64,000 nucleotides of DNA from Naegleria gruberi. Lineage: Eukaryota. How positions within the stretch are numbered: the first letter of the stretch is position 1; each line of letters opens with the position of its first letter. The DNA lies in assembly GCA_000004985.1 (NCBI GenBank), contig GG738851.1; one strand, 5' to 3'. Made by a program: the position numbers and the translations under genes. Under the pieces are notes generated by a model, which saw only the letters and a list, made by a program, of their open reading frames with translations, did not search any database and was not told the DNA's origin. Shown here in pieces: positions 10,301 through 46,142 of the stretch.

Positions 10301-13300
10301 AAATTCTACAGATTCTGTTATATTCATAGAGTTGTGGAATTTGACACTTAAAGTAACATTTCCTTGAAGTGAAGATGTAGTTCCTTTCAAGGAAAGAATA
10401 GGTCTAAACGAAAGTTTGAATAGTCCATTGGAAACCTTTCCATGATAATAAGCTATCAAAGATTCTGGCACATAAAAACTAGTTTGATTACCATCACTTA
10501 TTTTCCAAGAATACTTTAAATTTGTCCAAGTACAATTCGTGCAATTATTAGAATTAATAATCGATTCAAAATCTCCCTTTTTAAGAATCACAGAAACAAT
10601 GGACATATAAAATGAATTACTAGTTCCCTTAACAAAACCAGCAGGTTTTCCAATGATTTCTAATGACCTTTCTTCTCTACATTCGTTTCCAACAAATTTC
10701 ACTCCTTCATGACACTTGCAAGTATCAATTCCAATACATTTTCCATTTCCTGAACACACATTCGGATCATTAGATAGTTTTCCAAAGCAGGATGTTAAAT
10801 TACAGACTAATCCTTCTGGTGATTGAGTAAGGATATAGTATTCTTCTTTACAATAAGGAGAAAGCATTCGTATACGGTCATTGCCTGAATCTGAAAATAT
10901 TATTCTACCGTCGCTCAATACTGATAAACCCTGTGGATTGTTAAGATATGCTTGTTTAGCATCGGAATCTCCATTGAATCCTGCTGTTCCATTACCAGCT
11001 ATTATTGTACTATAGCCATTTAAATCTACTTTTCTAATGACATTGTTGTTGGTGTCAGCAATCAACATTTCGCCATTTGACATGTAAGTGAATGAGATAG
11101 AATAACCAAAGGTTGTATTTGTAGAAAAGGTTGTTTGATTCAATAACATTGAATCAATAACGTAACCACATTCCTTTTTCCCTGCTACTCGAGTCAAAAT
11201 TCCAGTTCCTGAAATATTAGTTTTCAATATACTACATCTGTCACTAAAAACTAGCTCATTATTCCTTATTTTCATATCGTAAATGTCTAAACTAGTATAG
11301 TTTGTTGGTACATTGTCTTCCATTTCCACATAATTGTAATTACCAGCAAATGTTGTAATAATTCCACTTGAGAATGAAACTTTTCTAATTCTATAAAAAC
11401 TATCTGACAGATAAATTTCATTATCAGTGAGGGCTAATGCTCTCACAAACCCAACGTAAGCATTGACAGCTAATCCATTATCACCAATACCACCTGCAAT
11501 AGTTTTAACAAAACCAAATGGTGTAACCTTTCGAACTCTATAAAAATCAGTATCACTAAATATCAATTCATTTGTAAATGGAGAAAATGCCACTCCAAAT
11601 GGATGGTTGAGGTTTGTACTAGTTGCCTCCAAATCTCCAGAAAATGGAGGTTGGACAACTCCTTTGGCTCCAGTTCCAGCCACGTTATACACCACATCTG
11701 ATCCATAATTCATCTTTTTGATAATGTGGTCAAGATATACAGCAACGAAGAGATCACCATTTGGAGAGAAGATAATTTGTGAAGGAAAGTTTAAACATGT
11801 TTTGTTTGCATAGCTTGTAGTACTGAAACCAGTGCATCCAGGAATATAGCCAATAACTGTCTTGATTAATCCCTTACTATCAATTTTTCTAACCATAAAT
11901 GAGTTCATATCTGAGAAGTAAATTTCATCTGTAATTGGGTGAACTGAGATTCCAAAAGGTGCTATATTGGTTGCTAGAGCAGCAAGACCATCTCCATTAT
12001 AGGAATAAACCCCAGTCCCAGCAATTGTTGTTATTAGACCAGTACTGTTACTAATCTTTCTAATTCTGTAATTTTCAGAGTCACAGAAAATAATATCACC
12101 ATTAGTTTCGTTGTAATAAACTCCTGTTGGCCCATTTAGAGGGGCAATAATTGCAGGACCCCCATCTCCACTATAACTACGGACACCAGTACCAGCGACG
12201 GTGGTTACTTGATTCGTCTTGGCAGTGAACTTTCTAATTCTTTGATTGTTTAGATAGTTGCCAAAAAACAGCATACCATCGCTTATAGAATCAGAAATTA
12301 ACAAATCGCCATTCGATAGGCAAGTGATGGCAGATGCAAAACCTATCCTGGCAGTTAATGCATCCCCATCTCTGTATCCTGATACTCCATCTCCAATGAA
12401 TGTTGAGATTATGCCATTCGAATCAATCTTTCTAATAACATAATTTCCAGCATCCACAATGTAAATATCACCTGTTGGACCAACACAAACACCTCTTGGT
12501 TGTGACAATTGAGAATAGATACCTTGATAACCATCACCAGCTAAGGTTGTCCTTGTTCCAGCAATAGTGACAGCTCTTTGATCGCTCTTTCTCAGTTTCA
12601 TAACCAAATTTTCAGATCCAACGTAAATGTCACCATTTGATAGAGATTGTACAACTGATCGCGGATAAATTACATCTGTTTCATTTCCAAAATTACCATC
12701 TGCAGAATACGCTCTATTACCAGTACCTAAAATTGGTTCAATCTTTGAGGAAGTATAATTTGATAGAGAATTCAATCTTATAACTCTGCTATTTCCCCAA
12801 TCAGCAATCAGTAATTCATCAGTTTGAGAATTGTAAAAAGTTCCTCTTGGTCTATACAAAGCTACAGAGCTTCCAACAATACCCATATATTTTCTCAAGC
12901 CATTTCCTGCTAATGTTGTAATTATTTTTGTATCCAAATCTATTCTACGTATTCTAAAATTGGAAGTGTCTGCAACGTACAAGAATCGTCCAGAAATAGC
13001 CAATCCTGTTGGATTATTCAAAGTTGCATTGATAGCAAGACCTCCATCTCCACCAAAAGCAGCCACTCCAGCATCGTTGGCCACAACTGTACGTACACTA
13101 TTCGAAATCTTTACAATTTGATGAGTTGACTCTGCCAAGTAGAAGTCTCCAAATGAGTCAAAAACCATTCCAATTGCCCCATTTGTACCACTATACAATG
13201 TGAATATTCTTCCTTCATTGGTGATTCTTCTGACCCTGCCAGTTTCTTCCAAATAAATTAATTCTCTAGTTAGTGGATGGAAAGTTAGAGTCAAAACCTT

Positions 13301-13981
13301 TGCAATACTTGCACTCGCTGCAAGAGATCCTTCTGGTGTATTTTTGTCCTCCACGCCTGTTCCTGCTATGGTATAGATGGTCCCATTAACTATCTTTCGT
13401 ATCGTATATTTGTAAGTATCACTAACATAAATTACATCATTTGCTTCATCAACTAGCAAACCAAATGGAGCACCCAGTTTGGCATCCAATGCAGAAATAT
13501 TACTCGAAAGATTTGAACCACCACCAGCTAGTAAGAGCATTGTATCTTGGCCATAGGAATTTTTATAGACCTTTCGAAGAGTGTTTTCATCTGTAAAGTA
13601 AACCTCTCCTTTAGAATTCACTGCTACACAAAATGGCCAATGAATTGAAGTGGTGGCAGGTGTGGGTCCTTTTGGAAAGTTTGTAGAATCAAAATTATAA
13701 TTGGGATTTCCAGCGAGAAAGTAAGAGTTTCCATCTGGTTTAATGTATCTGATCTGATTGTTTAAATAATCAGAGTAGTATATATTTCCAGTAGTGGAAG
13801 AAATAGCAATAGTTTGTGGCCAAAACATGCCAACAGTTAATGCGTTTTGCCCATCTCCATTAAATCCTCCAAGTAGTGTTGTTATCTTGTAGTTAACATT
13901 TGATGCAGTAGATTGGTCTCCTTTGGCGTTCGCTAGCAGAAGTAAGACAAAGATATACGTCATAAGATTAGAACATGACAT
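7343..13981 (-). CDS. Giant single-exon receptor (2212 aa): signal peptide, about 20 NHL-type beta-propeller repeats, EGF-like module, GAIN/GPS motif, 7 TM helices, C-terminal RGS domain
   Basis: ATG at 13981 followed by a hydrophobic signal sequence (MTYIFVLLLLANAKG). A long run of about 40-aa repeats contains the NHL signatures (YVSDTYKYTIRKI, FYLAESTHQIVKI, LYVADTSNFRIRRID, IYIVDAGNYVIRKID, IIFCDSENYRIRKI, IYLSDSFYRIRKV, LIADTNNNVIRKVD, IIFSDSGNDRIRML). EGF-like module CNLTSCFGKLSNDPNVCSGNGKCIGIDTCKCHEGVKFVGNEC. GPS motif CQFWNETNQRWESHGCSIFSFNNKTNQLICQCNHATLFAAF. Seven hydrophobic helices follow (from LYIAQISFGSLFLLLSLTILTLLV onward). The C-terminal RGS fold reads LFEWFCEKEYSLENLQLYLEL ... 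IYVTYIQMGALKEVNIS ... FIFTQQFKTYQEIV. The ORF is uninterrupted. Confidence 0.8.
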   Translation of the reverse strand: MSCSNLMTYIFVLLLLANAKGDQSTASNVNYKITTLLGGFNGDGQNALTVGMFWPQTIAISSTTGNIYYSDYLNNQIRYIKPDGNSYFLAGNPNYNFDSTNFPKGPTPATTSIHWPFCVAVNSKGEVYFTDENTLRKVYKNSYGQDTMLLLAGGGSNLSSNISALDAKLGAPFGLLVDEANDVIYVSDTYKYTIRKIVNGTIYTIAGTGVEDKNTPEGSLAASASIAKVLTLTFHPLTRELIYLEETGRVRRITNEGRIFTLYSGTNGAIGMVFDSFGDFYLAESTHQIVKISNSVRTVVANDAGVAAFGGDGGLAINATLNNPTGLAISGRFLYVADTSNFRIRRIDLDTKIITTLAGNGLRKYMGIVGSSVALYRPRGTFYNSQTDELLIADWGNSRVIRLNSLSNYTSSKIEPILGTGNRAYSADGNFGNETDVIYPRSVVQSLSNGDIYVGSENLVMKLRKSDQRAVTIAGTRTTLAGDGYQGIYSQLSQPRGVCVGPTGDIYIVDAGNYVIRKIDSNGIISTFIGDGVSGYRDGDALTARIGFASAITCLSNGDLLISDSISDGMLFFGNYLNNQRIRKFTAKTNQVTTVAGTGVRSYSGDGGPAIIAPLNGPTGVYYNETNGDIIFCDSENYRIRKISNSTGLITTIAGTGVYSYNGDGLAALATNIAPFGISVHPITDEIYFSDMNSFMVRKIDSKGLIKTVIGYIPGCTGFSTTSYANKTCLNFPSQIIFSPNGDLFVAVYLDHIIKKMNYGSDVVYNVAGTGAKGVVQPPFSGDLEATSTNLNHPFGVAFSPFTNELIFSDTDFYRVRKVTPFGFVKTIAGGIGDNGLAVNAYVGFVRALALTDNEIYLSDSFYRIRKVSFSSGIITTFAGNYNYVEMEDNVPTNYTSLDIYDMKIRNNELVFSDRCSILKTNISGTGILTRVAGKKECGYVIDSMLLNQTTFSTNTTFGYSISFTYMSNGEMLIADTNNNVIRKVDLNGYSTIIAGNGTAGFNGDSDAKQAYLNNPQGLSVLSDGRIIFSDSGNDRIRMLSPYCKEEYYILTQSPEGLVCNLTSCFGKLSNDPNVCSGNGKCIGIDTCKCHEGVKFVGNECREERSLEIIGKPAGFVKGTSNSFYMSIVSVILKKGDFESIINSNNCTNCTWTNLKYSWKISDGNQTSFYVPESLIAYYHGKVSNGLFKLSFRPILSLKGTTSSLQGNVTLSVKFHNSMNITESVEFVESFPLISPPQRIHSNATILPQSGMALSSLFTIQEDLNNWIVPDPILGNLEFSFGFEFINSFGENSLIRLSEFSTNSSLTTYLPFIQNNRTNDMSFSSINLYVICRDSLFNEYPEFIGSVKVIPNSEDLNDLILRIRLNNVLANIVPYDQSANQNTDILYESIRSINIQFENPSLTLSVINQLTSSSLETKSAYIVSSKLDEYLSKVYEQVRIEKNSNGFISKQRMSDTDLFNTLSTTSNILLNGYVNISNICNQLSSIILSQQNAKVYSDSMVPNSYISHLINITTTSFFKTSNTGTISQIYNDVSFATDYILSKYDGYYSEIGLSLITFDENLYINGNSTQLTKSKEFTMYKSGSQISLSDLRDPIYITFTIDTNSSISNSSLLSCQFWNETNQRWESHGCSIFSFNNKTNQLICQCNHATLFAAFIEQETPSSTEYLRQISSLYIAQISFGSLFLLLSLTILTLLVTFRKSILVRSRFITPYIGITALIIECSMLLITQRGILLGYANSVIGNQQDFEQSQSTVIQLQNGDLVANIISNIFTIIVNTMTLTAFFSYLYQVVRFQVLKYFYHQIYIMFHSKEPKGETILKLTKLFLSTRVMLILMCLFISLNVIYWVLWVILIRVGVITSLTYTHIVSISFTCSILLLGFITCCIIGLELIMTCVSKRKEREIIQQGQENNEKTNLNFSLNDLITGKSLEKFENFTATKKALRMPLYGIREAFTRLDSPLYFRAEMCLFVMCFTCLVISQIIGLSGLSFRKENSLKMLLLNDSISLLFDILYMFSYLFVFGGYSLVILIIQKFKKKQLEKQDDDDDIRKLIEHSEGLKLFEWFCEKEYSLENLQLYLELRNNQNILESLNDFQQVKTVINHIYVTYIQMGALKEVNISSDCSKLFASLVKRLDSVDNLNVELESAENMGSKKTMNFPQGLKESITESIESLQNQIRFNLSDTLSRFIFTQQFKTYQEIVNYKENLLKQAKLEI

Positions 13982-16856: not shown

Positions 16857-16863
16857 AAAAAAA
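16857..16863 (-). terminator. Pol III terminator (T7 run) after 5S copy 1
   Basis: Plus-strand aaaaaaa is a T7 run on the minus strand, immediately after the 5S 3' end ...GCTGTAGTC. Confidence 0.5.
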
Positions 16864-16981
16864 GACTACAGCACCACAGGTTCCCAAGTTGTCTCCAACC
16901 TCAGTACTGATGTGGCTCTACGATGCTTAACTTCTCAAATCAGACGGGATGAGGTGTATTCATCGTGATATGGCCGTAGCC
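16864..16981 (-). rRNA. 5S rRNA gene (copy 1)
   Basis: Minus-strand sequence reads GGCTACGGCCATATCACGATGAATACACCTCATCCCGTCTGATTTGAGAAGTTAAGCATCGTAGAGCCACATCAGTACTGAGGTTGGAGACAACTTGGGAACCTGTGGTGCTGTAGTC. Helix I (GGCTACGG paired with CTGTAGTC) is intact. The universal 5S boxes (CATCCCGTCYGAT, AGTTAAGC, GTACTG.GG.TGGAGAC..C.GGGAA) are present. It is followed by T7. Confidence 0.9.
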
Positions 16982-18070: not shown

Positions 18071-18363
18071 TTTGCTCTTAGTGTTTGTTATTTAGTTATT
18101 TTGTTTTGTTGTGGAAATATCATCATCCGATCAGTTATCTATTTATTTACAAGATGATTTCCACTAATTTTGTGATTCCGATTTTTAGTGCATCACAAGA
18201 ATTTGAATTTTTCTATTAATATTTTGATGAAAGGAAATTTAATACAAATCAACAAAACAAATTGAAGAGAAAATGAGAAACAAACAATTCAAAATGTGGT
18301 AAATCCTTTTAACTCCAATTTTGTAAACCTAAAGGCCTCCTGTAGATTTTTCTAAGACAAAAA

Positions 18364-18481
18364 GATTTCAGCACCACAGGTTCCCAAGTTGTCTCCAACC
18401 TCAGTACTGATGTGGCTCGACGATGCTTAACTTCTCAAATCGGACGGGATGAGGTGCATTCATCGTGATATGGCCGTAGCC
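18364..18481 (-). rRNA. 5S rRNA gene (copy 2, variant; possibly impaired)
   Basis: Nearly identical to copy 1 over the body. Its 3' end reads ...GGTGCTGAAATC instead of ...GCTGTAGTC. That introduces two mismatches into helix I against the 5' GGCTACGG. A T-run follows. Confidence 0.75.
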
Positions 18482-23681: not shown

Positions 23682-26600
23682 TTATTTTTTGATACCATAA
23701 CCACCTCCACCTGGTGTTTGAATAATGACACAATCTCCTGGTTCGACCTTGAAAGAGTTCTTTCCTCCTAGAGAGTGAATGAGACCTCTCTTGAGAATGA
23801 GTAAATTCTTTCCTTTTTGTCCATCTTTTCCACCTCTACAACCAGATGGTGAGAAGACTCTTCTCTCTGAGAGAATTCCAACTTGAAGTGGTTCAAGGAA
23901 TTCAACTTCTCTCACAACGCCATTTCCTCCTCTGAATTCTCCTTCACCTCCTGAATTTGGTCTCACGCTGAACTGTTTCAGAATGAGCGGATATCTTCTT
24001 TCGAGAATTTCAACATCGGTAATTCTGGTATTGGTCATGTGGGTGTGAACAGAGTCTTCTCCTTGATAGTCCTTTCCAGCTCCAACACCTCCACAAATAG
24101 TTTCATAATAGCCCCATGATTCATTACCGAATGTGAAATTATTCATGCATCCTTGACTACAGGCAGCTGCTGAGAATGCCTTAAGAATAACATCGGTCAC
24201 TCTTTGTGAGGTCAATACGTTACCTGCTACTACACCGACGATACCATCTTCACCAATATCTAAAAGTGAGTGTTTTTCAATCTTGATTGAGATTGGTTCC
24301 AGACATCCTTGATTGAGAGGAATGTCCTGTTTGACAAGACATCTCAAGCTGTACAAAATTGCAGAAATAGTAATGGCCTTTGGTGCACTAATTGACAAAT
24401 AGTTAGAATAATTGAAAAATTGATAGAGAATACTTACTTGGTATTACCTAAAAAATTTCAATTTCATGTAATATTCCAATAGTTAGTTCAATAAAAATTA
24501 AGAGCTTGGGTTAAAATAATATAATAATAAGCTACAAACCCAACATCATTTCTGAAGTTCCTGTGAAATCAAAGATTGCAACATGTTGCTTTTCAGAGCC
24601 GTTTCTAAAGTTTTCATGTTTTTGATTTTTGATTGTCAAATGCAAGTTGATTATTGATCCGTCATCCATAAAATCTTGGGAATGCAAGTCAATGCTGGCA
24701 GCATTCTTATCTTGTGAGTGTTCCTCAAATACTTGTTGCAACATTTCCTTGACTGCGTATTCTGCATTGTCCTGAACATATTGCATATAGCTTTGGACAA
24801 CTTCTAATGAATATTCATTGATGAGTTCTTGCAAAAGTGAAATACCTTTAGTATTAGAAGCAACTTGAGCTTTCATATCTGAAATATTATCCTTTATGGC
24901 TCTGGCACCTGCTTCTTTCAATAAATTTGTAATTCTCTCTTCTTGGAATTCACCATTTTCTACTAATTTACATGAAACAATTGCCATACCCTCCTCAGAT
25001 AGCAATCTACTGAATGGAGGCATTGAACCTGGCTGAATACCACCAATGTCAGCATGATGTCCACGATTGGCAACATAGAAAGCTACTTTTCCATTTGAAT
25101 ATACAGGAGTTATTACGGTAATGTCAGGCAAATGGGTGCCTCCAGCACAAGGGTGATTGGCTACAATTACCTCGCCTTCCTTCCAACTATCTCCCAGAGT
25201 TCTAATTTGATATCGAACTGCCTCACTCATTGAACCCAAGTGAACAGGCAAGTGTGGAGCATTGGCAAGGAGAGAACCATCTGGAGAGAAGAGAGCACAT
25301 GAAAAATCGAGTCTTTCCTTAATATTGGTTGAAGTTGATGTTCTTTGGAGGGATCTACCCATTTGTTCAGCAATACTCATGAAACGATGATTGAAAATAC
25401 TCAACCTAACAGCATCAACCTTCTTCAATTCATTCACATTGATTTCTTGTGTCTTTGTTGAGGAGAGAGTAATTTCCACATCACCATACTTGGTAATTAG
25501 AGCTGTTCCATGTGGTTCAACAACAATTGTAGTTGTGTCGTGAATAATAATAGCAGGGCCGTGAACCTTATCTCCAGCAGCCAAATGTTGCAAATCATAG
25601 ACAGCTGTCTCAGTCCAACCTTGTTCAAAGTATGTCTTGGTTGAGGTAATTGGTTTTGGCTCAGACTTAGATGAAGCAATTTCAATCTTACTGATGGATG
25701 GTGTAATACCAATACCTCTCACTCTAATATCATCGACAATGATTGGTCTTCCAACAACAGTAAATCCATATTCTCTCTTGTAGGATTTTTCAAATTCAGA
25801 TCTGTAATCTCCTCCAAGGATTGAATCTTGTTGCTTGGCCTCCTCTGGAACAGATGTCATGATTGAATAGTCGGTTCCCTTATACTTGAGATTGAGATAA
25901 TGTACAATTTTGATGTTGGAGTTGTCAAATCCAGAGTTTTTCAATCTCTCAACAACTCTTCCCTCGATTTCTTTCAATCTGTTGGAGAAGTATCCGAAAT
26001 TTTCCTCAGCATATTCTGCAGTACTTGGCTCTTGTTCATCCAAAACAACATCAGCAAGTCCCAACCCATAAGCACTCAAAATACCAGATTGTCTTGGAAT
26101 GAAAACCTTTTTCATACCTAAATTATTGGCAATAGCTTGAGCATGTTGTGAACCAGCTCCACCAAATGAACACAAAGTATGATCACGAGTATCATAACCT
26201 TTAGAAACTGTAATGGAACGAATTGGTCTTGACATGGCCTCGTTGGCAACTTGAATGAAACCATAGGCAACTTCTTCTGTTGTTTTGAGTTTGGCATTTT
26301 GTGGATCTCTCTTCAATTCAAAATCATTGACTTGTTTGGTCAATTCTTCGAATGCAAGTTTGGTGGCTTCATAATCGAGTGGTTGATCTTCAGTTTCACC
26401 AAAAATTTTTGGGAAGAATTCTGGTAATAATCTTCCAAGGAATAAGTTGGCATCAGTAATGGCCAAATGTTTGATTGGGAATGATCCTTGCTTTCTATAA
26501 CAGACTGGACCAGGATTAGCTCCAACAGAACTTGGACCAACTATTTCACAATTAAGAATGCTATTCGTGAAAATACATACCTTCAAAGATACCTGTCTTT

Positions 26601-27951
26601 TGGTTGAATGTCAATTTGGAGCCACCTCCAGCAGCAACTGTTGTGATATCCAGTTGAGGTGCTTGAATTTGAACTCCTGCAGTTTCAGTTTCAAAAACCA
26701 AATCAAATTTTCCTCCAAATCTTGATACATCAGTAGATGTTCCACCAATATCAATTCCAATAATTGGGATTTTATCATCTGGATTGTAGGATGTTGATGC
26801 AATAGCAACGATTCCACCAGCTGGTCCTGATAATATGGCATTACATCCCTTAAAATCTGAAGCAGGTGTAAGACCGCCATTCGATTGCATGAATGTGACA
26901 CGTTTCAACAACTTATCAAAATCTGAAAATCCAGAACAAAAGTTTCTAACATAATCCCTAATAATTGGGCTCAAATAAGCATCAACGCAAGTAGTGTGAC
27001 CTCTTGGAACTGCTCTAATCATTGGCATGGCTTGATGAGAGAGTGAAATATTTTCAATTCCAGCTCTCTTTGCAATTTCAGCAATTTGAAGTTCATGATC
27101 AGCAAATGTATACGAATGCAATAAAACTACAGCAATGCTATTAATTCCACTTTCTTTCAACTCTTTACAAGTATTATAAACAAATTCTTCATCCACAGTA
27201 TTTCTAATAAAAACTTCCTCTCCTGAAATACCCTTCTTTAATCTTTGATTTCTCCATTCTTCAGTAGAAAGTTGAGATCCTTCTGGTTCTTGGAATTTCT
27301 TACATTTTCCATAAACTTGCTCTGTGAGACAAACTCTTTCATCCACCTCAATCACTCTTTCATATAAAAGTGAAGGTTTTCTAATAAATAATTCGAAAAT
27401 CTTTGGACGTGCCTGATGTCCAATTTTAAGCAAATCACGAAATCCTTTCGTTGTAATCAAGGCACATCTAGATCCCTTTCTTTCTAGCAAGGCATTAGTA
27501 GCCACAGTGGTTCCCATTCTAATATATTCAATGTTATCAATATCAATTTCTTTAGCATCCTTCATTTGAAGTCCCAAAACTTTGTTCATTATTCTCTTAA
27601 TTCCTGAAATAATTTCATCACAAATGCAATTTAAATATTAATATTCAATATTATTACAAAAATATTAATCATAATATTACCTTCTCTCGGAGCATCATTA
27701 TAATGTTGTGGATCTTCACTCAATAACTTCATAACCACATAGGGTTGATAATTGTTATGAATTGTCTTGGGAACCTCTTCATCATCATGACGATCATCAT
27801 CGGAATTAAAAATCAAAAAAAAAATTAAATAATTCGTGATGCTGATGAAAACACAAACCTGCATAAATATCACAAAAGGTTCCTCCACGATCAATGGAAA
27901 ATCTGAATAATTGATTGGAAGCAGATCCACTACATTCGGAATTGTTGGACA
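23682..27951 (-). CDS. OPLAH: 5-oxoprolinase (ATP-hydrolysing), hydantoinase A/B family; join(27951..27859, 27776..27671, 27603..26581, 26540..24540, 24447..24438, 24387..23682)
   Basis: Exon 1 reads [31 protein letters not shown]. Exon 2 reads [33 protein letters not shown]. Exon 3 (hydantoinase A) reads [10 protein letters not shown]...[32 protein letters not shown]... Exon 4 reads [19 protein letters not shown]... plus the hydantoinase B region ([17 protein letters not shown]..., [12 protein letters not shown]). Then comes a 10-nt micro-exon GTAATACCAA, then exon 6 reading [30 protein letters not shown]...CMNNFTFGN...PGGGGYG. Introns are 82, 67, 40, 92 and 50 nt with GTTTGT, GTAATA, GTATGT, GTTTGT and GTAAGT donors. 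The order and spacing of conserved blocks follow metazoan 5-oxoprolinase throughout. Confidence 0.85.
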
Positions 27952-28256
27952 TTTTTTTTTGATTAGTAATTTGAACGCACGCTCTTATTCGAATTATTAT
28001 TGTAATATTACAATTAAGATGTTCTGTAAGCTAATACAAAGAAAATGTTGTTGTAAACATCAAGCCTGTTTGAATGATTTCCAAGGCCACTATAACTCAA
28101 CCTTTTCCAACCAAAGAAGAAGAATCATTGACCTTGTTTCTTCAACTTTGAAAATTACTGGTTTAACTTGAGGATCTGGTATTAACTAGTGATGATGCCG
28201 TATCATAAACGATAACATTTCAAAGTTCCAAACGACAATGTTCATTACAAAAAAAA

Positions 28257-29399
28257 ATGTCTGATAGTGATAGGCCAGTTGCTTGTGTTGATATGGGTTC
28301 TTTGAACATTAGAGTAGGATGGGCAGGTGATGATTCTCCCCAAATAACCACTCGATCACTCATCGGATATCCAAAATACAAACCAGCAATGTTTGCCTCT
28401 GGACAAAAATATTCCTACATTGGTGATGAAGCAATTTCCAAGAGGGGAGTTTTATCTTATCGTCCAGTGATGCATCACGGAGAGAATGTTGATTGGGATC
28501 ATATGGAAATGCTATGGACGTACTTGTTTGAAAATGAGTTACGGGTTGGAATGAAAGATTTGTCCATTGTGAGTGCTGATGCAGTGCTTGGATGTCATAG
28601 TAGGAGGGAAAAGACAGCTCAGATTCTATTCGAAAATTTCAATGTTAGAGAGTGGTATTGTGGATTGGCTCCTGTGATGGCTTTGTATGGAACTGCAACA
28701 CCAAGTGGTTTGTCTGTTTGTATTGGAGATGGAGTGACACAATTAATTCCAATTGTTGGAGGGAGTGTTGTTTTGGAATCTGCAAAAAGAATTAATTTTG
28801 GAGGACGAAACATTACAAAATATCTGAACGAGTTGGTCATTTCTCGTGGCTATTATTTTGAAAATTCCAGTACTGAGCAGGATATTATCAGAGATGTCAA
28901 GGAAAAGTTCAGTTACACTACTATGGACTATTGGAGTGCATGTCAACAGGTAGTACAATATGGATCGAAGGTCAAGGAATACTTACTACCAGATGGAAAT
29001 GTACTCTCTTTTGGAAAGGAGCTATTTCAGTGTAATGAGGCATGGTTTGATCCAACTCTTGTTCAAAAGGAATATCCAGGTATTCATCAAATGATATATA
29101 ATTGTGTGGAATCGATGGACATTGATAACAAAAGAGAAATGTATGAGAATATTGTTTTGAGTGGAGCTGCCACTTTAACTGAAGGTTTCTGTCAAAGATT
29201 ACAATATGAGGTGCAACAATTAATTCCAGAAAGTGTCACGTGTAGAGTTGTTGCTGGAAACGAGCGACACAACAATGTATGGCTAGGATGCTCAGTGCTA
29301 GGAAGCATGACCAATTATTTATATGGAATGACCATGAAAAGTGAAGAATACGACGAGAATGGACCATCATGGGTCCACAGAAAATTTATGGATGCATAA
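28257..29399 (+). CDS. Actin-related protein (divergent Arp, subtype unresolved)
   Basis: 380-aa single-exon ORF with the actin fold landmarks: VDMGSLNIRVGWAGDDSPQ (phosphate-1 loop), SYIGDEAISKRGVLSYRP, KTAQILFENFNV, CIGDGVTQLIPIVGG (phosphate-2) and VLSGAATLTEGFCQRLQYEV. Confidence 0.75.
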   Translation: MSDSDRPVACVDMGSLNIRVGWAGDDSPQITTRSLIGYPKYKPAMFASGQKYSYIGDEAISKRGVLSYRPVMHHGENVDWDHMEMLWTYLFENELRVGMKDLSIVSADAVLGCHSRREKTAQILFENFNVREWYCGLAPVMALYGTATPSGLSVCIGDGVTQLIPIVGGSVVLESAKRINFGGRNITKYLNELVISRGYYFENSSTEQDIIRDVKEKFSYTTMDYWSACQQVVQYGSKVKEYLLPDGNVLSFGKELFQCNEAWFDPTLVQKEYPGIHQMIYNCVESMDIDNKREMYENIVLSGAATLTEGFCQRLQYEVQQLIPESVTCRVVAGNERHNNVWLGCSVLGSMTNYLYGMTMKSEEYDENGPSWVHRKFMDA

Positions 29400-31939: not shown

Positions 31940-34786
31940 ATGGAAGAACAGAAAGATGCGAAATTATTTAGAACAATTTCTGTTGATCAAGAAGAAGAAA
32001 TAATTCTTCATCATGTTGATTCGAACAATTATATGAATGAAGTTAAATTATTTATTCAAAGTGATGCTATGAGTACTATGAGTAGTAATACTACTACCAA
32101 TTTATCTTCATCTTCAAAATTACTAACGGACGATCATCATGATGATGAAAATAATTCAACATGTACAATTAATAATAATCTAAATAATACAACTACAACA
32201 ATAACAAATTCAGCAACTACAACAATATCATCACAGGAAAATAATAATTTAAATATTATTGATGCATCAACAACATCATCAGAAAATTCCGAATTATTTA
32301 ATGTATTACCTGATGATAATAATAATTATCAGATGCAACAGATCAAGTCGGAATCGCCTAGAGTTTCAACTGTTATTGAAACAAAAGTAACGATTTCTAC
32401 TCAATCAGCAGCTGAGGATGATCATCAGGAAGAAGAGAATGATGAACATGCTATTGATGATCCAATGCAGGAATCACCAGCAAAACCACAACAGGATAAT
32501 GTACAGCAGAATAATAGTAACTTGTCACCGTTTGAATTAATGATGGCCAAGTTGGAATCAAACAAGAGTGCAACAAGTAAATTAATTTTCAAAAGGAAGA
32601 ATGTTGATTTGTTGGGAGAGTCAACTAGTTCGGCATTTCAACCACAGGCATCGAGCTCAATGGATAGTTCAAACCCGATTGTGGAATCGGATGGTGTTGG
32701 ATTGATTGGTGAATCTCCTGGATTGGAAGATGAAGTACTGGATTGTAAAAGAACAAATGGAGTGCTACGTTGTTCATCATTTTCACAGGATACGGATAGT
32801 AAAATTGGGGATGATTACGAGGAGCCATTTCAAGATCATGACAAAGCATTGGAAAAACTCTCTGAAGGATTGTCAGATGAACAAAAACGAGTTTTTGATA
32901 TGGTAAAGGAGGGGAAAAGTGTTTTAATTACTGGTTTGGCTGGTGCTGGAAAATCATTCTTGATGAAACGAATTATTGCCATGTTAAAATTGATGAGGAA
33001 AGATTATGCTGCTACTGCTGCCACAGGCATTGCAGCAGTCAATATTGGAGGAGTTACTTTGCATAGTTATATAGCTTTAGCTGATACTAATTGTGCAGGA
33101 ATTTGGGGAAAGAAAATGGATATCAAAGTATTAGATACATTGATTATTGACGAAATTTCAATGATTAGTGCAGAGCTCTTTGAACTTGTTCATTTCCTAT
33201 TGACTCTTGTTTGTTATTACTCTGATATTAAGAGACGTTACGATCTTCAAAAGCAAGATAAGAAGAAATTGACAGAGTCCATGAAAAGGATTTACGATCA
33301 AGCTCTTCCATTCCATTTAATTGATGGACTTCCACTATTTGGAGGAAAGCAATTAATTCTTTCAGGAGATTTTATGCAATTAACACCTGTACCGAGAAGA
33401 AATAGTTCAGATTCAGAAAATCACATGGAAGGAAAAGATAAGCAATTCATTTTTCAATCACCACTCTTTTCCAAAATTTTTAACTCTTCTAATATTATGG
33501 TTCTCAAGCAAATATTCAGACAAGTCGATCAACCTGATTTTTTAGAGGCACTTAATGAGATTAGAATGGGAAAAGTCTCTACAAAAACCATCAATTTTTT
33601 GAAAAGATTAAAGCAAAACAGGTTAATGCCAGTGAATGGAATTTTACCTACCCTACTCTACACAACCAACAGAGATGTGGACCAGGAAAATAACACTCAT
33701 TTAGCAAACCTGTCCAGCGACAGTCACTTTTTTGAAACTGAAACAATAGATCCAAATCATAACATTCCGAACTCTACACTGAACTATATGAAACGTATAT
33801 TTGAGAACCAAATTTCTGAAAATATAACACTGAAGGAAGGAGCACAAGTAATCCTGACAAAGAATATGGACAAGTATCATGTTAATGGATCGAGAGGAGT
33901 AGTTGTAGGATTTAAAGTTTTTTCTCAATTACAAATTGAGGAGTGGCAAAAATTCAGATTTTCTCGTTTCTCATCAAAATGGACCAACGATATTGAAATA
34001 CCAAAGATCAAATTTTTCGATGGCTCTGAGTCTTACATTCCACCTGTTGTTTTTACAATGAAAGGACCAAAGATAAATGGTGCTGAAACAGAATTGTGGA
34101 GAATGGGATTTCCACTCAGGTTGGCCTGGGCCATCACTGTTCACAAATCACAAGGTATGACTTTGGATTATTGCAAAGTGGACCTCTCACAGATATTCAC
34201 TCCTGGACTTTCGTATGTGGCACTGAGTCGTGTAAAGAATGCCAAAAATTTAGAAATTGTAAATATTAACTGGAAGAAGATTGATTATGTGAATGAGGAT
34301 GCAAAAAAGTTTTACAAGAATCTGAATAACAAGGATCTCAGCTCCTCATCTCCCCTAGGAAAGAGATCTTCAGTTGGTTCTTCATCTTCTGAAATGGGCA
34401 TTGTACCAATATTCTCAACACCCAACACTAAAAAGATCAAAACAGATGATAACATGGATCTTTCATTCACTCCTCCTCAACAACCTATGGCTTCCTCTTC
34501 TTCAGCATCTACTACTCAACAACTTCAGTGTACAACAAACGTTATTTGGAGCTGGCAAAATGGAGCTAATTGGAAATTGTACGATAGAATTTCACACCAA
34601 ATCGAACAAGGTTATAGTGAGTGGACCAATGAGAATCAACCAGAATCAAAACGATTCTACTCTGTTTCAGATGCTCACTATATTGATTTCCAATTAATGA
34701 AACAAGTGAATAAGAATGAATCATGGAGAACAAGAAAGGTCAAAAGAGAGGAGCAATTCATTACTCGTCTCACCAAACAAATGTAA
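31940..34786 (+). CDS. PIF1-family 5'-3' DNA helicase with long N-terminal low-complexity region and C-terminal WWE domain
   Basis: Helicase motif I/Walker A GLAGAGKSFLMKRII and motif Ia/II region ATAATGIAAVNIGGVTLHSY ... LIIDEISMISAELF. C-terminal PIF1 signature WAITVHKSQGMTLDYCKVDL...GLSYVALSRVKNAKNLEI. The last ~80 aa match the WWE consensus (VIWSWQNGANWKLYDRISHQIEQGYSEW...FYSVSDAHYIDFQLMKQVNKNESWRTRKVKR). Confidence 0.8.
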   Translation: MEEQKDAKLFRTISVDQEEEIILHHVDSNNYMNEVKLFIQSDAMSTMSSNTTTNLSSSSKLLTDDHHDDENNSTCTINNNLNNTTTTITNSATTTISSQENNNLNIIDASTTSSENSELFNVLPDDNNNYQMQQIKSESPRVSTVIETKVTISTQSAAEDDHQEEENDEHAIDDPMQESPAKPQQDNVQQNNSNLSPFELMMAKLESNKSATSKLIFKRKNVDLLGESTSSAFQPQASSSMDSSNPIVESDGVGLIGESPGLEDEVLDCKRTNGVLRCSSFSQDTDSKIGDDYEEPFQDHDKALEKLSEGLSDEQKRVFDMVKEGKSVLITGLAGAGKSFLMKRIIAMLKLMRKDYAATAATGIAAVNIGGVTLHSYIALADTNCAGIWGKKMDIKVLDTLIIDEISMISAELFELVHFLLTLVCYYSDIKRRYDLQKQDKKKLTESMKRIYDQALPFHLIDGLPLFGGKQLILSGDFMQLTPVPRRNSSDSENHMEGKDKQFIFQSPLFSKIFNSSNIMVLKQIFRQVDQPDFLEALNEIRMGKVSTKTINFLKRLKQNRLMPVNGILPTLLYTTNRDVDQENNTHLANLSSDSHFFETETIDPNHNIPNSTLNYMKRIFENQISENITLKEGAQVILTKNMDKYHVNGSRGVVVGFKVFSQLQIEEWQKFRFSRFSSKWTNDIEIPKIKFFDGSESYIPPVVFTMKGPKINGAETELWRMGFPLRLAWAITVHKSQGMTLDYCKVDLSQIFTPGLSYVALSRVKNAKNLEIVNINWKKIDYVNEDAKKFYKNLNNKDLSSSSPLGKRSSVGSSSSEMGIVPIFSTPNTKKIKTDDNMDLSFTPPQQPMASSSSASTTQQLQCTTNVIWSWQNGANWKLYDRISHQIEQGYSEWTNENQPESKRFYSVSDAHYIDFQLMKQVNKNESWRTRKVKREEQFITRLTKQM

Positions 34787-34818: not shown

Positions 34819-37467
34819 ATGTATGATCATTGGGTAGGTATACCTATTCTACTACTCTCTTCACTATCATTACGCTAGAAATACGACAGAGATCAAGTCC
34901 TCCGAATAACTCTCAACAATGGCTTTTATCTACAATATGCTGATGATAAATTTAAAAAAGATAAAGATCTTGTGTTACAGGTAATTTCTCGGTACGGAAG
35001 GGGACTCGAATTCGTAGACGAATCCCTGAAAAAAGATAAGGAGGTTGTTCTTGCAGCTGTCAAACACGATGGCTTTGCACTTAAATTTGCTCATCATTCA
35101 TTGAAAAAAGATAGAACAATAGTTTGGGAAGCAATTTCACAAAATGGAAATGCTCTTCGTTTCGCTGATGCAATATTTCAAAATGATAGAGAAATTGTGT
35201 TGCGATCGGTGAGAATCGCTGGCGGAGCATTACAACATGCCAGTGATTTGTTAAAAGTGGATCATCTAGTTGTGTTTGAAGCAGTCAAACAGAGTGGACA
35301 TGCTATTCAATTTGCGCACTCATCATTTAAGAAAGATAGAGAGCTGGCATTGAAATGTTGTAAAATAGGAGATAATTCATTTGAATATGTAGATGGATCA
35401 TTCAAGAAAGAAAGAGAGTTCGTATTGGAATCTGTTAAAAGTTTTGGAACAGCTCTTTTGCATGTACATGAACCATTTAAAAAAGATAAGGAAATAGTTT
35501 TTGAAGCTATCAAACAAAGTCCAAGTGCATTCTTCAGTGCTGATGATTCATTTAGGAAGAAAGACAGAGAATTTATATTGAAAGTCGCCAAGTGTGATGA
35601 GGGTGCAATTTATTGGACAGATTATTCTATCCAATCAGAGACATTATTTGCATTTATCTACTCGTTTAGCTTGAAAGCTGATCAAAAAGAATGGATAAAG
35701 GGTCTAAATTCAACGCTATACGAAAATATCGAGAAAGCCAAGGCTGAATCAATTCAGACATGTTTATCTAGAGATGTTATTGGAATGTATTCGAACAAGT
35801 TTTCTGAGGAAGCTTATTTATTTTGTTGCTTGGCTTTACCAGACACTTATCCTAAACCTGTAGGAAATATATTCAATTTCAATCAATCGTATTCTAGTCA
35901 ATTTGTGGAAAAACTGATTATTGTACAAATTTTGAAGAGTATTAGTTCATTGGATTCAACTTGCAGCGCATCTGTCAGTAAGACAATAGATTATTACTTG
36001 TTTTTATTCAAGTTAGACAGATTTTTAGACGAATCTAATGTTAAATCAACCAATTATTCCAAGCTTGGATCTGTTGTTATGGAAATTTCATCAAAGTTTG
36101 AAACATCATATTACTCAAAAACTGATATTGGAATTGCATTATTATTTTTCAAAGATTGGATCAGCAGATTTAAACATTTCGATGATCACCGAGAGACATT
36201 AGCTCAATACAAGCAAGTTGGAGGTGATTTCTCAAAAATTATGCGAGTTATCACGCAATTTCATTACTATTCAAATAATGATTATGATGTTGTTTCAGTA
36301 CTAGGATATGGAGGCGAAGGAGCTGCTTTTAAAGCATTTAGTAAGAAATTGAATGAATTGGTGGCCATCAAAATCAAATTTGAGAAGGAAGATGAAAAAA
36401 GCAGCGAGGAAAGAATTCAATTTATCAGGAGAAATGATATTGAAGGTAAAATCAAATGCCACGATTGTAATTTGATTGATGGTTACATGTATTCTATCAT
36501 GGAATTGGGAGAAGAGACATTATCTGATTATATTGATAGAAATAGAACTTATTATCAAAATAAGCAATATTCGAAAGAGCATTTTATTGAGATTCTAATA
36601 ATATTTAACAAGATTTTACAAGCAGTCAAATCAATTCATGACCATAATATTTCACATAGAGATTTGGATCCTAAAAATGTAGTCAAAGTGAAAGATCGTT
36701 ACAAAATTATTGACTTTGATATTGCAAAGGTCATCAAAACAGGTAATTCTATCACCCTAACTGTTGGAAAATTTGCATACATGTCACCAGAAGTGTCACA
36801 CGACAATTACAGCGAGGAAATGCTCAATAACGAAGACAAGCTTTCAAATAATATTGGAAATGTCACAACATCATGTGATATCTTCTCATTGGGATGTATT
36901 TTATTGAAACTCTTAACAAACTGTAGTTTGAGATTGGATAGAGAATTCGTAACTGTTATCAACAACTTTGAGAAATATGATGGAAATTATCAATACTTTA
37001 CAGATAATGGATTTTATTTCTATTCAATATTGATTGATTTGTTAAAGGAAAAGAAATTACATCACGCCATTCAACAGACAGTGAACCAGTTCGTGGATCC
37101 TGAATGGGAAGTTAATGAAATACTTATCAAGTGTTTAATAACAATGATTCAAAAGGATCCAACTCAAAGATTAGATTGTTTCATACATAGTAATGTCCTT
37201 ACAAAGGTAATCGATTTTTTAAAAGGTGAAAACAACATGACACTTAACCAAATTCTCAAAGATATGGAAAATTATAAGGAAATTAATGAATTGAAGGATA
37301 TTCCACAAATTATTGAAGAAAATGAGCAGCTTAAGAATGAAAATGTTGAGCTGAAGAGAATGATCGAAAATCTAGAAGAGAAAAGTCGAAAGGATAAGGA
37401 AGAAAATCAAATGCTAATGAAGAAGTTAGAGGAAATGGAGAAACGAACCAAAGAGCTTGAAAAATAA
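34819..37467 (+). CDS. DUF4116-like (~38-aa) repeat array fused to a degenerate protein-kinase domain and a C-terminal coiled coil; join(34819..34833, 34879..37467)
   Basis: Mini-exon ATGTATGATCATTGG with a GTAGGT donor and a 45-nt intron ending AG at 34877-34878. The frame with the alternative GTG start at 34972 stays open upstream and encodes further repeat units, so the gene starts upstream of that GTG. About 6 tandem units follow with the pattern DKEVVLAAVKHDGFALKFA / DREIVLRSVRIAGGALQHA / DRELALKCCKIG... Kinase motifs present: GYGGEGAAF (Gly loop) and VAIKIK (VAIK). The catalytic loop is HRDLDPKN, where Asp replaces the usual Lys. DFD replaces DFG. YMSPE is present. The C-terminus is an E/K-rich coiled coil. 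Confidence 0.65.
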
Positions 37468-44578: not shown

Positions 44579-46045
44579 TTATCGAGAATTGATTTTTTCA
44601 ATCATTTGTATGAGGAAAGTACGATCCTTCAAGAGGTAATTGTACTCGTCTCTTGTAATAAAATTATAGGTCATTAATGCTTCCATGATAATTTCTCTAT
44701 CGTGCTTAAAGTAAGTTCCACATTCAAAGAATGCAGATCCATTAAGTTTCACTGCTTCCAGTACGAATTCTCTGTCCTGTTTCACAATTTCTGGGCATTC
44801 CAATATAGCAAGAGTATTGTGTTTGAAATATGCCAAAATGACATCTCTGTCCTGCTTTAACTCGTCAGCAGCATATTCAGCAACTCTTGGATTAATATCG
44901 ATTGCCTCCAAAATAAACTCTTTTTCTTTGATCAAATCTGTTGAATAGGTTATAGCTCTGGGATTGATTTTGATAGCTTTCTTGATGATTTCAACATCTG
45001 ATTTTAAACTTGGAAGAGCAGCATAACCCAGAGCATACCCATTAGAGGAAACTGCCAAGTAAACCAAATCTCTATCTCTCCTTAAACTTTCGTGAGCATA
45101 TTTGAAAGCGCATCCCTCTTGAGTAATAGCTGCTGTCACAATTTCCACATCCTGTTTGAGTGATTCGTCAGCATCCTTTAGTGCATCTCCACATTGTTTT
45201 ACTGCCTCTAATACTATCTCTTTGTCCTTTCTAAATTGATGAGGAACTCTACCAAGCACTTTTCCATTTCTTTTAACGGCTTGAAGAGCAAATTCTCTGT
45301 CGTTCTGTATTTCTGGACTTGCCAGTAGAAATCCTGCAACATAATTAGGTCCAATTGATTCCAAGAGTATTTCCCTATCTTGTTTAACATATTTTGCGGC
45401 AAATTGAATAGAAGTTCCATCAAGTTTGACAGCATTTAACAAAATTTCTCTATCTTTTTTCATATTTTCTGGAATGGTCATTATTGTAATAATTGGGTTC
45501 TTTTTGACAGCCTCAAAAACTACCTCTCTATCATTTTTCAATTCCTTGCTGCAATGTGAAAAAGCACTCATCGAATTTCTGATAGCTTTCAACACTAATT
45601 CTCTATCCGACCTAAGATCTTCATTTGCAAACTCCAAGGCATCTCCACATCCATTCTCAATAGCCAATCGTACCAATTCTTGATCGTTTCGCAACTCGTT
45701 TACCATCAGTTCAAAAGCTCTCCCATTCACTCTCAAAGCCTTCATCACAAATTCTCGATTTTTCTTCAATTCATTACTTGCATCATAAATTCTACAAAAA
45801 TCCAATCGGATAGCCTTCAGCATAATCTCTTCATTGTTTCTCATACACTCAGAGATGAATAAATTATCCAACTTCATCCTCTCCAATGCCAGTCCATACA
45901 TGATCGGATCAAATTCGAATAGTTGGGCAATTTCGGAAAAGAAGGGAATTGCCTTGAGAGCCTTTCTTTCCAGGTCATATTTTTCTCGTAAAATTCGTGA
46001 TGAACAGTTTGTATCTAAAAGCAAAATTGTGCAATGTGTTGTCAT
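44579..46045 (-). CDS. DUF4116-like repeat protein (about 11 tandem ~38-aa units); paralogous to the N-terminus of the 34819 gene
   Basis: Repeats of the pattern DREFVLEAVKLNGSAF / DREIIMEAL / DRDVILAYFKHNTLAI / DREILLESIGPNYVAGF / DKEIVLEAVKQCGDAL / DVEIVTAAITQEGCAF. ATG at 46045. 488 aa. Confidence 0.65.
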   Translation of the reverse strand: MTTHCTILLLDTNCSSRILREKYDLERKALKAIPFFSEIAQLFEFDPIMYGLALERMKLDNLFISECMRNNEEIMLKAIRLDFCRIYDASNELKKNREFVMKALRVNGRAFELMVNELRNDQELVRLAIENGCGDALEFANEDLRSDRELVLKAIRNSMSAFSHCSKELKNDREVVFEAVKKNPIITIMTIPENMKKDREILLNAVKLDGTSIQFAAKYVKQDREILLESIGPNYVAGFLLASPEIQNDREFALQAVKRNGKVLGRVPHQFRKDKEIVLEAVKQCGDALKDADESLKQDVEIVTAAITQEGCAFKYAHESLRRDRDLVYLAVSSNGYALGYAALPSLKSDVEIIKKAIKINPRAITYSTDLIKEKEFILEAIDINPRVAEYAADELKQDRDVILAYFKHNTLAILECPEIVKQDREFVLEAVKLNGSAFFECGTYFKHDREIIMEALMTYNFITRDEYNYLLKDRTFLIQMIEKINSR

Positions 46046-46142
46046 TTTTTTTGTAAAGTTTTTAACAAAGAAGTTCTTGTTTCAATGTTAGTTCCTCAAT
46101 TTAGTTCTTATACGTATTCATATCTTTTTAAGATGATCGTAA

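What the first reader, a model, noticed from the sequence alone, without database searches (positions are those of the whole stretch)
24388..24448. 10-nucleotide micro-exon in the 5-oxoprolinase gene
Conserved OPLAH residues can be kept in frame across the region only one way: ...[12 protein letters not shown] / N-T-N / [18 protein letters not shown]. That requires using GTAATACCAA (24447..24438, minus strand) as a free-standing exon. It is flanked by a 92-nt intron (GTTTGT...TTTTTTAG) and a 50-nt intron (GTAAGT...TTAG).

The resulting GNTNAPKAIT matches the GN-LNAPRAVT block of animal oxoprolinases. Micro-exons this small are rare outside metazoan neurons and plants, and gene finders usually miss them. 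Here the prediction is forced by protein conservation.
Basis: partly seen in the sequence, partly recalled or inferred. Interest (0 to 1): 0.5.

Follow-up and report, generated by a model that had tools for sequence, protein, structure and literature searches.

The report
10-nt micro-exon in amoeba 5-oxoprolinase gene
A 10-base coding exon sits between two short introns in the 5-oxoprolinase gene of a Naegleria-like amoeba; it is almost certainly real, but it is a gene-structure detail of a known kind, useful mainly for correct annotation.

Summary
On the minus strand, GTAATACCAA (24447-24438) lies between a 92-nt intron (24539-24448, GTTTGT...TTTTTTAG) and a 50-nt intron (24437-24388, GTAAGT...AATTAG).

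With this exon, a six-exon model gives a 1309-aa 5-oxoprolinase with all four Pfam domains full length. It reads GNTNAPKAIT, which fills an ungapped, almost invariant G-N-x-N-A-P block in 120 homologues.

In the nearest relatives, Naegleria lovaniensis and Willaertia magna, this stretch is uninterrupted in the genome. Their DNA matches the micro-exon at 9 of 10 bases.

"Only one way" is overstated. Eleven in-frame, stop-free GT/GC-AG solutions exist, but only this one keeps the motif. It beats the others by 5 to 26 bits on a homologue profile.

Only 43 of 2,000,000 shuffles of the spacer give an equivalent exon. Skipping the exon shifts the frame.

One thing is new. The upstream intron sits at exactly the position and phase of an Acanthamoeba castellanii intron. 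The downstream intron was seen in no other species sampled.

I found no transcript data, so splicing is inferred. Verdict: a real micro-exon, a new member of a known kind, of modest interest.

The parts
24438..24447 (-). The 10-nt micro-exon GTAATACCAA. It supplies bases 2-3 of the Gly codon, then Asn, Thr, and bases 1-2 of the second Asn of G-N-T-N-A-P.
   Evidence: Searches give the sequence. One search shows the motif is conserved. Searches show 9 of 10 bases identical to the intron-less orthologous DNA. One search gives 2e-5 by shuffling.
24448..24539 (-). Upstream intron D. It is 92 nt, phase 1, GTTTGT...TTTTTTAG, 21% GC. A CTAAC branch-point-like motif lies at 24486-24482, with its A 35 nt from the 3' splice site.
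   Evidence: The same GTTTGT donor is used by intron A of this gene. Acanthamoeba castellanii has an intron at the identical position and phase.
24388..24437 (-). Downstream intron E. It is 50 nt, phase 2, CAA|GTAAGT...AATTAG, 22% GC. A CTAAC motif lies at 24406-24402, with its A 15 nt from the 3' splice site.
   Evidence: The donor matches CAG|GTAAGT at 8 of 9 positions, the best in the gene. None of the other nine species mapped has an intron at this position.
24540..26540 (-). Exon 4, 2001 nt, ending ...[12 protein letters not shown](1st base).
23682..24387 (-). Last exon, 706 nt. It starts with the third base of the Asn codon, continues [11 protein letters not shown]..., and ends with stop TAA at 23684-23682.
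26581..27603 (-). Exon 3, 1023 nt. Intron C (26541-26580, 40 nt, GTATGT..ATAG) follows it.
   Evidence: The junction restores the conserved ...[14 protein letters not shown].
27681..27776 (-). Exon 2, 96 nt. It is flanked by intron A (27777-27858, 82 nt, GTTTGT..GAAG) and intron B (27604-27680, 77 nt, GTAATA..TCAG).
   Evidence: The junctions restore DIYAEVP and APREGIKRI. W. magna shares the position of intron B.
27859..27952 (-). Exon 1, 94 nt, with ATG at 27952-27950.
   Evidence: The N-terminal [11 protein letters not shown] aligns with the homologues.

Best explanation
The window carries a functional, six-exon 5-oxoprolinase (ATP-hydrolysing) gene of a Naegleria-clade heterolobosean amoeba. 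Its fifth exon is a constitutive 10-nt coding micro-exon.

Two ordinary short U2-type GT-AG introns of 92 and 50 nt flank it. Each has its own donor, CTAAC-like branch motif and acceptor. Removing both joins TTGG|GTAATACCAA|TGCACC and yields the conserved GNTNAP segment of the Hydantoinase_B domain.

The acceptor of one intron and the donor of the next lie only 10 nt apart. I therefore infer that the introns are recognised individually (intron definition) and removed one after the other, not by a complex spanning the exon. The near-perfect downstream donor (CAA|GTAAGT) would help secure inclusion.

On origin, I infer that the upstream intron occupies an old or recurrently used site, G|GTAAY inside the Gly codon, which Acanthamoeba shares. 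The downstream intron is specific to this lineage, so the micro-exon arose when two introns came to lie 10 nt apart.

Shown here: the sequence, the splice signals, the conservation and the comparative gene structures. Inferred: actual splicing, its order, and the gain/loss history.
For: - **Sequence and signals:**
- **Gene model:** 3930-nt CDS, 1309 aa, four Pfam domains full length with E from 1e-15 to 7e-194.
- **Homologues:** 69% identity to Willaertia magna and 73% to Naegleria lovaniensis.
- **Motif:** 120 homologues show G-N-x-N-A-P ungapped. The model reads GNTNAPKAIT, identical to W. magna.
- **Enumeration:** of all GT/GC-AG one- and two-intron solutions, only this one keeps the motif.
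- **Profile score:** 1980.4 bits against 1975.0 to 1954.7 for the ten alternatives.
- **Orthologous DNA:** uninterrupted in N. lovaniensis (L001 5751-5828) and W. magna (L002 6268-6345). Their 10 nt match at 9 of 10, within 78-nt stretches 82% and 76% identical.
- **Shuffle test:** 43 of 2,000,000.
- **Failure modes:** skipping the exon gives a frameshift with a stop after 14 codons, and retaining either intron gives stops.
- **Other junctions:** the gene's other three junctions also restore conserved residues, and intron A uses the same GTTTGT donor.
- **Shared intron site:** Acanthamoeba has an intron at the same alignment column and phase.
Against: - I could find no cDNA or RNA-seq. The predicted spliced 26-mer is absent from metagenome contigs.
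- No protein at least 90% identical exists in the protein collection, so no independent annotation or transcript confirms the junctions.
- The upstream donor TGG|GTTTGT is weak, matching the consensus at 5 of 9 positions.
- No closer relative was found in which conservation of the micro-exon could be tested.
- Once the upstream intron is removed, the junction G|GTAATA resembles a usable donor; intron B uses GTAATA. Some non-productive splicing is therefore possible.
Confidence: 0.88

Rival explanations
1. A single intron spans the whole region and uses a weak donor. One option is 24535-24388 (GTAGCT..AATTAG), giving MMLGFAPKAIT. Another is 24544-24388 (GTTGGG..), giving SEMIAPKAIT. Under this reading the 10-mer is just intron sequence.
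For: One search shows these solutions are in frame, stop-free and GT-AG. Gene finders would probably prefer a single intron.
Against: - They delete 2-5 residues from a block that is ungapped in 120 homologues.
- They lose 14-21 bits on the homologue profile.
- Their donors (GTAGCT, GTTGGG, GCTTAT) resemble none of the five used in this gene.
- They leave unexplained an AG|10-mer|GTAAGT that is 9 of 10 identical to the orthologous coding DNA.
Confidence: 0.04
2. Inclusion of the micro-exon is not fully constitutive. Skipping it, or using the regenerated G|GTAATA donor, gives a frameshifted and probably unstable mRNA. On this view the exon acts as a productive/unproductive splicing switch on 5-oxoprolinase output.
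For: Skipping gives a stop 14 codons later. The micro-exon begins with a donor-like GTAATA, the hexamer used as the real donor of intron B. Splicing complexes cannot assemble on both sides of so short an exon at the same time (review of the literature in PMC8831610).
Against: There are no transcript data. The downstream donor is close to optimal (8 of 9), as expected for constitutive inclusion. The region shows no conserved or unusually stable RNA structure (z = -0.11). Regulation is pure conjecture.
Confidence: 0.1
3. The locus is a decaying pseudogene or carries an assembly or sequencing error, so no correct splice solution exists.
For: No annotated protein from this genome was retrievable for comparison.
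Against: The other 3920 nt of coding sequence are open and 55-73% identical to functional homologues, with all domains complete. All five junctions restore conserved residues. A 142-nt AT-rich insertion carrying perfect splice signals is not a plausible sequencing error.
Confidence: 0.03

Closest known systems
Ultra-short coding micro-exons (15 nt or less) of plants and animals, e.g. the 9-nt AP2-domain and invertase micro-exons and the 1-nt APC11 exon (Yu et al. 2022, PMC8831610)
   Same: It is an internal coding exon far shorter than a splicing complex can span. It encodes part of a conserved protein motif and lies between canonical GT-AG introns. Gene finders are prone to miss it, and it can be found by forcing protein conservation across the gap.
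   Different: The host is a heterolobosean amoeba with very short introns (40-92 nt) and few introns per gene. The nearest sampled relatives lack both flanking introns, whereas plant micro-exon clusters are conserved across land plants. No transcript validation exists here.
5-oxoprolinase (ATP-hydrolysing), OPLAH/OXP1 family (Pfam Hydant_A_N + Hydantoinase_A + Hydant_A_C + Hydantoinase_B)
   Same: The domain architecture is full length. Identity is 52-56% to animal, plant, dictyostelid, Acanthamoeba and bacterial fused oxoprolinases (the non-heterolobosean hits). The GNxNAP block is conserved.
   Different: Only the exon-intron structure differs. The enzyme's activity was not tested.
Acanthamoeba castellanii 5-oxoprolinase gene (P0082, locus L083)
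   Same: It has an intron at exactly the same place and phase as the window's upstream intron..TAC G|gtacgt..caaag|GT AAC TTG AAT GCG.
   Different: It has no second intron 10 nt downstream, so no micro-exon forms. The intron sequences are unrelated (GC-rich against AT-rich). The two organisms belong to different eukaryotic supergroups, so the match is either ancestral retention or parallel gain at a G|GTAAY site.
Recursive-splicing exons (a 3' splice site placed directly against a regenerated 5' splice site, AG|GTAAGT) of Drosophila and vertebrates; named from my own knowledge, not tested
   Same: The upstream acceptor abuts a donor-like sequence (TTTTTTAG|GTAATA), and a stronger donor follows a few bases downstream.
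   Different: Here the short exon must be kept for the protein to be made. The introns are tiny rather than very long. The resemblance follows simply from the Gly-Asn codons GGT AAT.

Membership tests
Coding micro-exon (internal exon of 15 nt or less) | Internal exon of 15 nt or less, bounded upstream by a 3' splice site and downstream by a 5' splice site | tested here: met
   The exon is 10 nt, in the context TTTTTTAG|GTAATACCAA|GTAAGT.
Coding micro-exon (internal exon of 15 nt or less) | Both flanking introns are complete and plausible spliceosomal introns for this genome (donor, branch region, acceptor, length) | tested here: met
   They are 92 and 50 nt, within the 40-92 nt range of this gene's introns. 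Both are GT-AG, carry CTAAC motifs 35 and 15 nt from the acceptors, and are 21-22% GC. The sample is only the five introns of this gene.
Coding micro-exon (internal exon of 15 nt or less) | Including the exon keeps the reading frame and encodes residues conserved in orthologues | tested here: met
   GNTNAP fills an ungapped block in 120 homologues. This model has the best profile score of 11. The exon is 9 of 10 identical to intron-less orthologous DNA.
Coding micro-exon (internal exon of 15 nt or less) | The exon is present in the mature mRNA (spliced reads or cDNA) | not testable with these tools
   The predicted junction 26-mer is absent from metagenome contigs. The protein collection holds no product at least 90% identical.
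5-oxoprolinase (ATP-hydrolysing), OPLAH/OXP1 | Fused hydantoinase A and hydantoinase B architecture of about 1250-1300 aa | tested here: met
   PF05378, PF01968, PF19278 and PF02538 all match end to end in a 1309-aa product.
5-oxoprolinase (ATP-hydrolysing), OPLAH/OXP1 | Closest relatives are proteins named 5-oxoprolinase across eukaryotes | tested here: met
   Best matches are N. lovaniensis, W. magna and Acrasis kona, followed by animal, plant and amoebozoan 5-oxoprolinases at 52-73% identity.
5-oxoprolinase (ATP-hydrolysing), OPLAH/OXP1 | ATP-dependent conversion of 5-oxoproline to glutamate | not testable with these tools
   This needs an enzymatic assay.
Introner / transposon-derived introns | The intron sequence recurs in many near-identical copies elsewhere in the genome | tested here: not met
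   A blastn-short search of introns D and E against the 64-kb window found only themselves, plus 18-20-nt AT-rich matches with E from 0.008 to 0.12. Only this window could be searched, so a genome-wide family is not excluded.
Ancestral (deeply shared) intron position | The same alignment column and phase in distantly related eukaryotes | tested here: inconclusive
   Intron D (column 1428, phase 1) equals an Acanthamoeba intron. It is absent from three animals, a plant, a dictyostelid and three heteroloboseans. By my arithmetic, the chance that at least one of five introns hits one of about 26 sites among about 3800 is roughly 3%, and higher if proto-splice sites are favoured. Intron E is unique.

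The most novel reading that the evidence does not exclude
The micro-exon records intron turnover in an intron-poor protist. The upstream intron would be a relic from the early eukaryotic ancestor: kept in this Naegleria lineage and in Acanthamoeba, but lost in N. lovaniensis, Willaertia, Acrasis, animals and plants. The downstream intron would be a recent gain 10 nt away. That would make this a datable example of micro-exon birth by intron gain. The exon's donor-like start (G|GTAATA) could also make inclusion a splicing checkpoint on 5-oxoprolinase expression.
Probability: 0.15. Interest if true: 0.5.

Novelty: new member of a known kind. Interest (0 to 1): 0.3.

Why it matters
- **Annotation:** missing the 10-nt exon yields a truncated, frameshifted or motif-deleted 5-oxoprolinase. 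The N. lovaniensis orthologue is already annotated as two separate genes, which shows how fragile automated models are in this clade.
- **Splicing biology:** a 10-nt exon between 92- and 50-nt introns is a compact natural substrate. It could show how an intron-definition spliceosome handles splice sites 10 nt apart, and in what order the introns are removed.
- **Evolution:** one intron site is shared with Acanthamoeba and the other is lineage-specific. This is a small but clean data point on intron gain and loss in Heterolobosea.
- **Limit:** none of this changes current understanding. Micro-exons of this size are well documented elsewhere.

Tried and rejected
1. **Existing annotation or transcript.** Two searches of the 5.8-billion-protein collection, with the full model and with the C-terminal 405 aa, found nothing above 73% identity. 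A neighbouring PIF1-like ORF peaked at 55-56% in N. fowleri and N. lovaniensis. The source genome is therefore not represented.
2. **Spliced junction in metagenomes.** The junction 26-mer had no hit in metagenome contigs.
3. **Closer relatives in metagenome contigs.** The best locus, L003, is 67% identical and uninterrupted over the motif. Conservation of the micro-exon in sister species could not be tested.
4. **Introner or repeat origin.** No copies of either flanking intron occur elsewhere in the window. The two introns are not similar to each other beyond a shared CTAACTATT 9-mer.
5. **RNA structure bridging the splice sites.** The fold gives -27.7 kcal/mol, z = -0.11, no better than shuffles.
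6. **Single-intron and 3-nt-exon alternatives.** These were enumerated and rejected on conservation and donor quality.
7. **Literature.** No paper links Naegleria with micro-exons. None usefully links Naegleria with oxoprolinase; the one co-mention is a trypanosome paper I did not open.
8. **Not attempted.** I did not compile genome-wide intron statistics or look for further micro-exons, because 64 kb is too small a sample.

Full report
**Observation**

- A long open exon ends ...TTT GAT TTC ACA GGA ACT TCA GAA ATG ATG TTG G at 24540.
- A 92-nt AT-rich stretch follows at 24539-24448. It starts GTTTGT and ends TTTTTTAG.
- The ten bases GTAATACCAA occupy 24447-24438.
- A 50-nt stretch follows at 24437-24388. 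It starts GTAAGT and ends AATTAG.
- Coding sequence resumes with T GCA CCA AAG GCC ATT ACT at 24387.

Joining the three coding pieces reads [33 protein letters not shown].

**The gene**

I built the complete model on the minus strand. The exons are:
- 27952-27859
- 27776-27681
- 27603-26581
- 26540-24540
- 24447-24438
- 24387-23682

The CDS is 3930 nt and encodes 1309 aa. The five introns are 82, 77, 40, 92 and 50 nt, and all are GT-AG. The donors are GTTTGT (twice), GTAATA, GTATGT and GTAAGT.

The product matches Pfam Hydant_A_N, Hydantoinase_A, Hydant_A_C and Hydantoinase_B end to end. The nearest solved structure is an N-methylhydantoinase. Every other splice junction also restores residues conserved in homologues.

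**The organism**

The best protein matches are Naegleria lovaniensis (73%, a partial 995-aa model) and Willaertia magna (69%). Unnamed metagenome and Logan-assembly proteins and Acrasis kona follow at about 60%.
- Over aligned columns, the model is 76.6% identical to N. lovaniensis and 70.9% to W. magna. Those two are 71.8% identical to each other.
- A neighbouring PIF1-like helicase ORF peaks at 55-56% in N. fowleri and N. lovaniensis.
- The window is about 33% GC.

The source is therefore a Naegleria-clade heterolobosean whose own proteins are not in the searchable collection. I cannot name the species from tool results.

**Is the micro-exon forced?**

An alignment of the model with 120 homologues shows G-N-[TCLWI]-N-A-P as an ungapped, almost invariant block. 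The homologues include bacteria, animals, plants, amoebozoans and heteroloboseans. The model's GNTNAPKAIT is identical to W. magna.

I enumerated every one- and two-intron GT/GC-AG solution between FDFTGT and APKAIT.
- Seven single-intron and four two-intron solutions are in frame and free of stops.
- Ten of the eleven delete or replace the G-N-x-N residues. They also rely on donors such as GTAGCT, GTTGGG or GCTTAT, or on a 3-nt exon.
- On a profile built from the 120 homologues, the 10-nt-exon model scores 1980.4 bits. The others score 5.4 to 25.7 bits lower.

The shuffling test points the same way. Only 43 of 2,000,000 shuffles of the 152-nt spacer gave an AG|GTAAYNNNAA|GT arrangement with both introns at least 30 nt. 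Yet 45% of shuffles gave some frame-restoring micro-exon. The evidence lies in the conserved residues, not in frame restoration.

**Comparative DNA**

This is the strongest independent support. In N. lovaniensis (L001 5751-5828) and W. magna (L002 6268-6345) the same coding stretch is uninterrupted in the genome.
- Their sequences at the micro-exon position are GTAATATCAA and GTAATACAAA. Each matches the window's GTAATACCAA at 9 of 10 bases.
- The surrounding 78-nt stretches are 82% and 76% identical to the spliced window sequence.

The 10-mer is thus an orthologous piece of coding DNA cut off on both sides by introns that the relatives lack.

**Consequences of mis-splicing**

Skipping the exon joins G|TGCACC. 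This shifts the frame and gives a stop after 14 codons. Retaining either intron also gives stops. A functional enzyme therefore requires inclusion.

**Splice signals and likely mechanism**

Both flanking introns resemble the gene's other introns in length and composition. Each holds a CTAAC(TATT) branch-point-like motif, 35 and 15 nt from its acceptor.

| Donor | Sequence | Matches to CAG\|GTAAGT |
|---|---|---|
| Intron E (downstream) | CAA\|GTAAGT | 8 of 9, the best in the gene |
| Intron D (upstream) | TGG\|GTTTGT | 5 of 9; same hexamer as intron A |

The region has no unusual RNA structure (z = -0.11).

Complexes cannot assemble on both sides of so short an exon at once; the literature on this is summarised in PMC8831610. 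I therefore infer intron-by-intron recognition and sequential removal.

Removing the upstream intron creates G|GTAATA, a weak donor-like site; GTAATA is the real donor of intron B. Some unproductive splicing is therefore conceivable, but it is untested.

I mapped the introns of nine other OPLAH genes onto the alignment. The window's introns lie at these (column, phase) positions:

| Intron | Column, phase | Shared with |
|---|---|---|
| A | 186, 1 | none (Acanthamoeba has one at 187, 0) |
| B | 218, 1 | W. magna |
| C | 601, 1 | none |
| D | 1428, 1 | Acanthamoeba castellanii |
| E | 1431, 2 | none |

- Intron D coincides exactly with an Acanthamoeba intron...TAC G|gtacgt...caaag|GT AAC TTG AAT.
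- Capitella, Tubulanus, Mya, Andrographis, Polysphondylium, Acrasis, N. lovaniensis and W. magna have no intron at D or E.
- A chance coincidence of at least one of five introns with one of about 26 Acanthamoeba sites is roughly 3% by my arithmetic. It would be more likely if G|GTAAY acts as a preferred insertion site.
- Either reading is open. D may be ancestral with repeated loss, or it may be a parallel gain.
- Neither intron has copies elsewhere in the window, so there is no sign of a transposon-like intron family. A whole-genome search is still needed.

**What is missing**

There is no transcript evidence.
- The predicted junction 26-mer is absent from the metagenome collection.
- No closer relative was recovered.
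- The literature held here has nothing on Naegleria micro-exons.

**Verdict**

It is a new example of a known phenomenon. Ultra-short coding micro-exons are documented in plants, insects and vertebrates and are commonly mis-annotated (PMC8831610). It matters mainly for annotation, and as a small natural test case for splicing and intron turnover in an intron-poor protist. Interest is 0.3.

Noticed in passing
L083 5530-5710 (Acanthamoeba castellanii KB008148.1), compared with window 24448-24539: The Acanthamoeba 5-oxoprolinase gene has an intron at exactly the same codon position and phase (inside the Gly codon of G-N-x-N-A-P) as the window's upstream intron. It has none at the downstream intron's position.
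   Followed up: yes
L001 2063-2848 and 3001-6500 (N. lovaniensis PYSW02000020.1): The N. lovaniensis orthologue is annotated as two separate genes: a 204-aa Hydant_A_N piece and a 995-aa remainder. tblastn with the window protein runs continuously across both, so this is probably a split mis-annotation.
   Followed up: partly
L002 6603-6671 (Willaertia magna JBEGDK010000102.1): The W. magna orthologue has its own small internal exon of about 69 nt (aa 1154-1176) between two 53-nt introns, at positions not used in the window. Intron positions in this gene differ widely among heteroloboseans.
   Followed up: partly
window 16863-16981 (-), 18363-18481 (-), 59828-59946 (+): Three dispersed 5S rRNA genes (Rfam 95-106 bits) lie among protein-coding genes.
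   Followed up: no
window 46142-46232 (+): A tRNA-Thr(TGT) call is 91 nt long, longer than a standard tRNA, so it probably contains an intron. tRNA-Val(AAC) lies at 2989-3062 (-) and tRNA-Leu(CAA) at 59162-59242 (+).
   Followed up: no
window 28257-29399 (+): An actin-family ORF (Pfam Actin, E 5e-79) points away from the oxoprolinase gene, whose start codon lies about 300 nt away at 27952. The two form a head-to-head pair with a short shared upstream region.
   Followed up: no
window 31940-34786 (+): A PIF1-like helicase ORF of 948 aa is only 55-56% identical to its N. fowleri and N. lovaniensis counterparts. The N. lovaniensis copy lies on the same 656-kb contig as that species' oxoprolinase gene.
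   Followed up: partly
window 34972-37467 (+) and 44579-46045 (-): Two ORFs are rich in DUF4116 repeats (5 and 14 matched stretches). The first is fused to a protein kinase domain.
   Followed up: no
window 7343-13981 (-): A single 2212-aa ORF combines NHL/teneurin-type repeats, a GPS (GPCR proteolysis site) motif and an RGS domain. This is an adhesion-GPCR-like architecture in an amoeba.
   Followed up: no
window 27777-27858 (-): Intron A of the oxoprolinase gene ends in ...GATGATGAAG with no pyrimidine tract, and it holds in-frame-looking GAT repeats. The junction is fixed by conservation (DIYAEVP), but the acceptor is unusually weak.
   Followed up: partly
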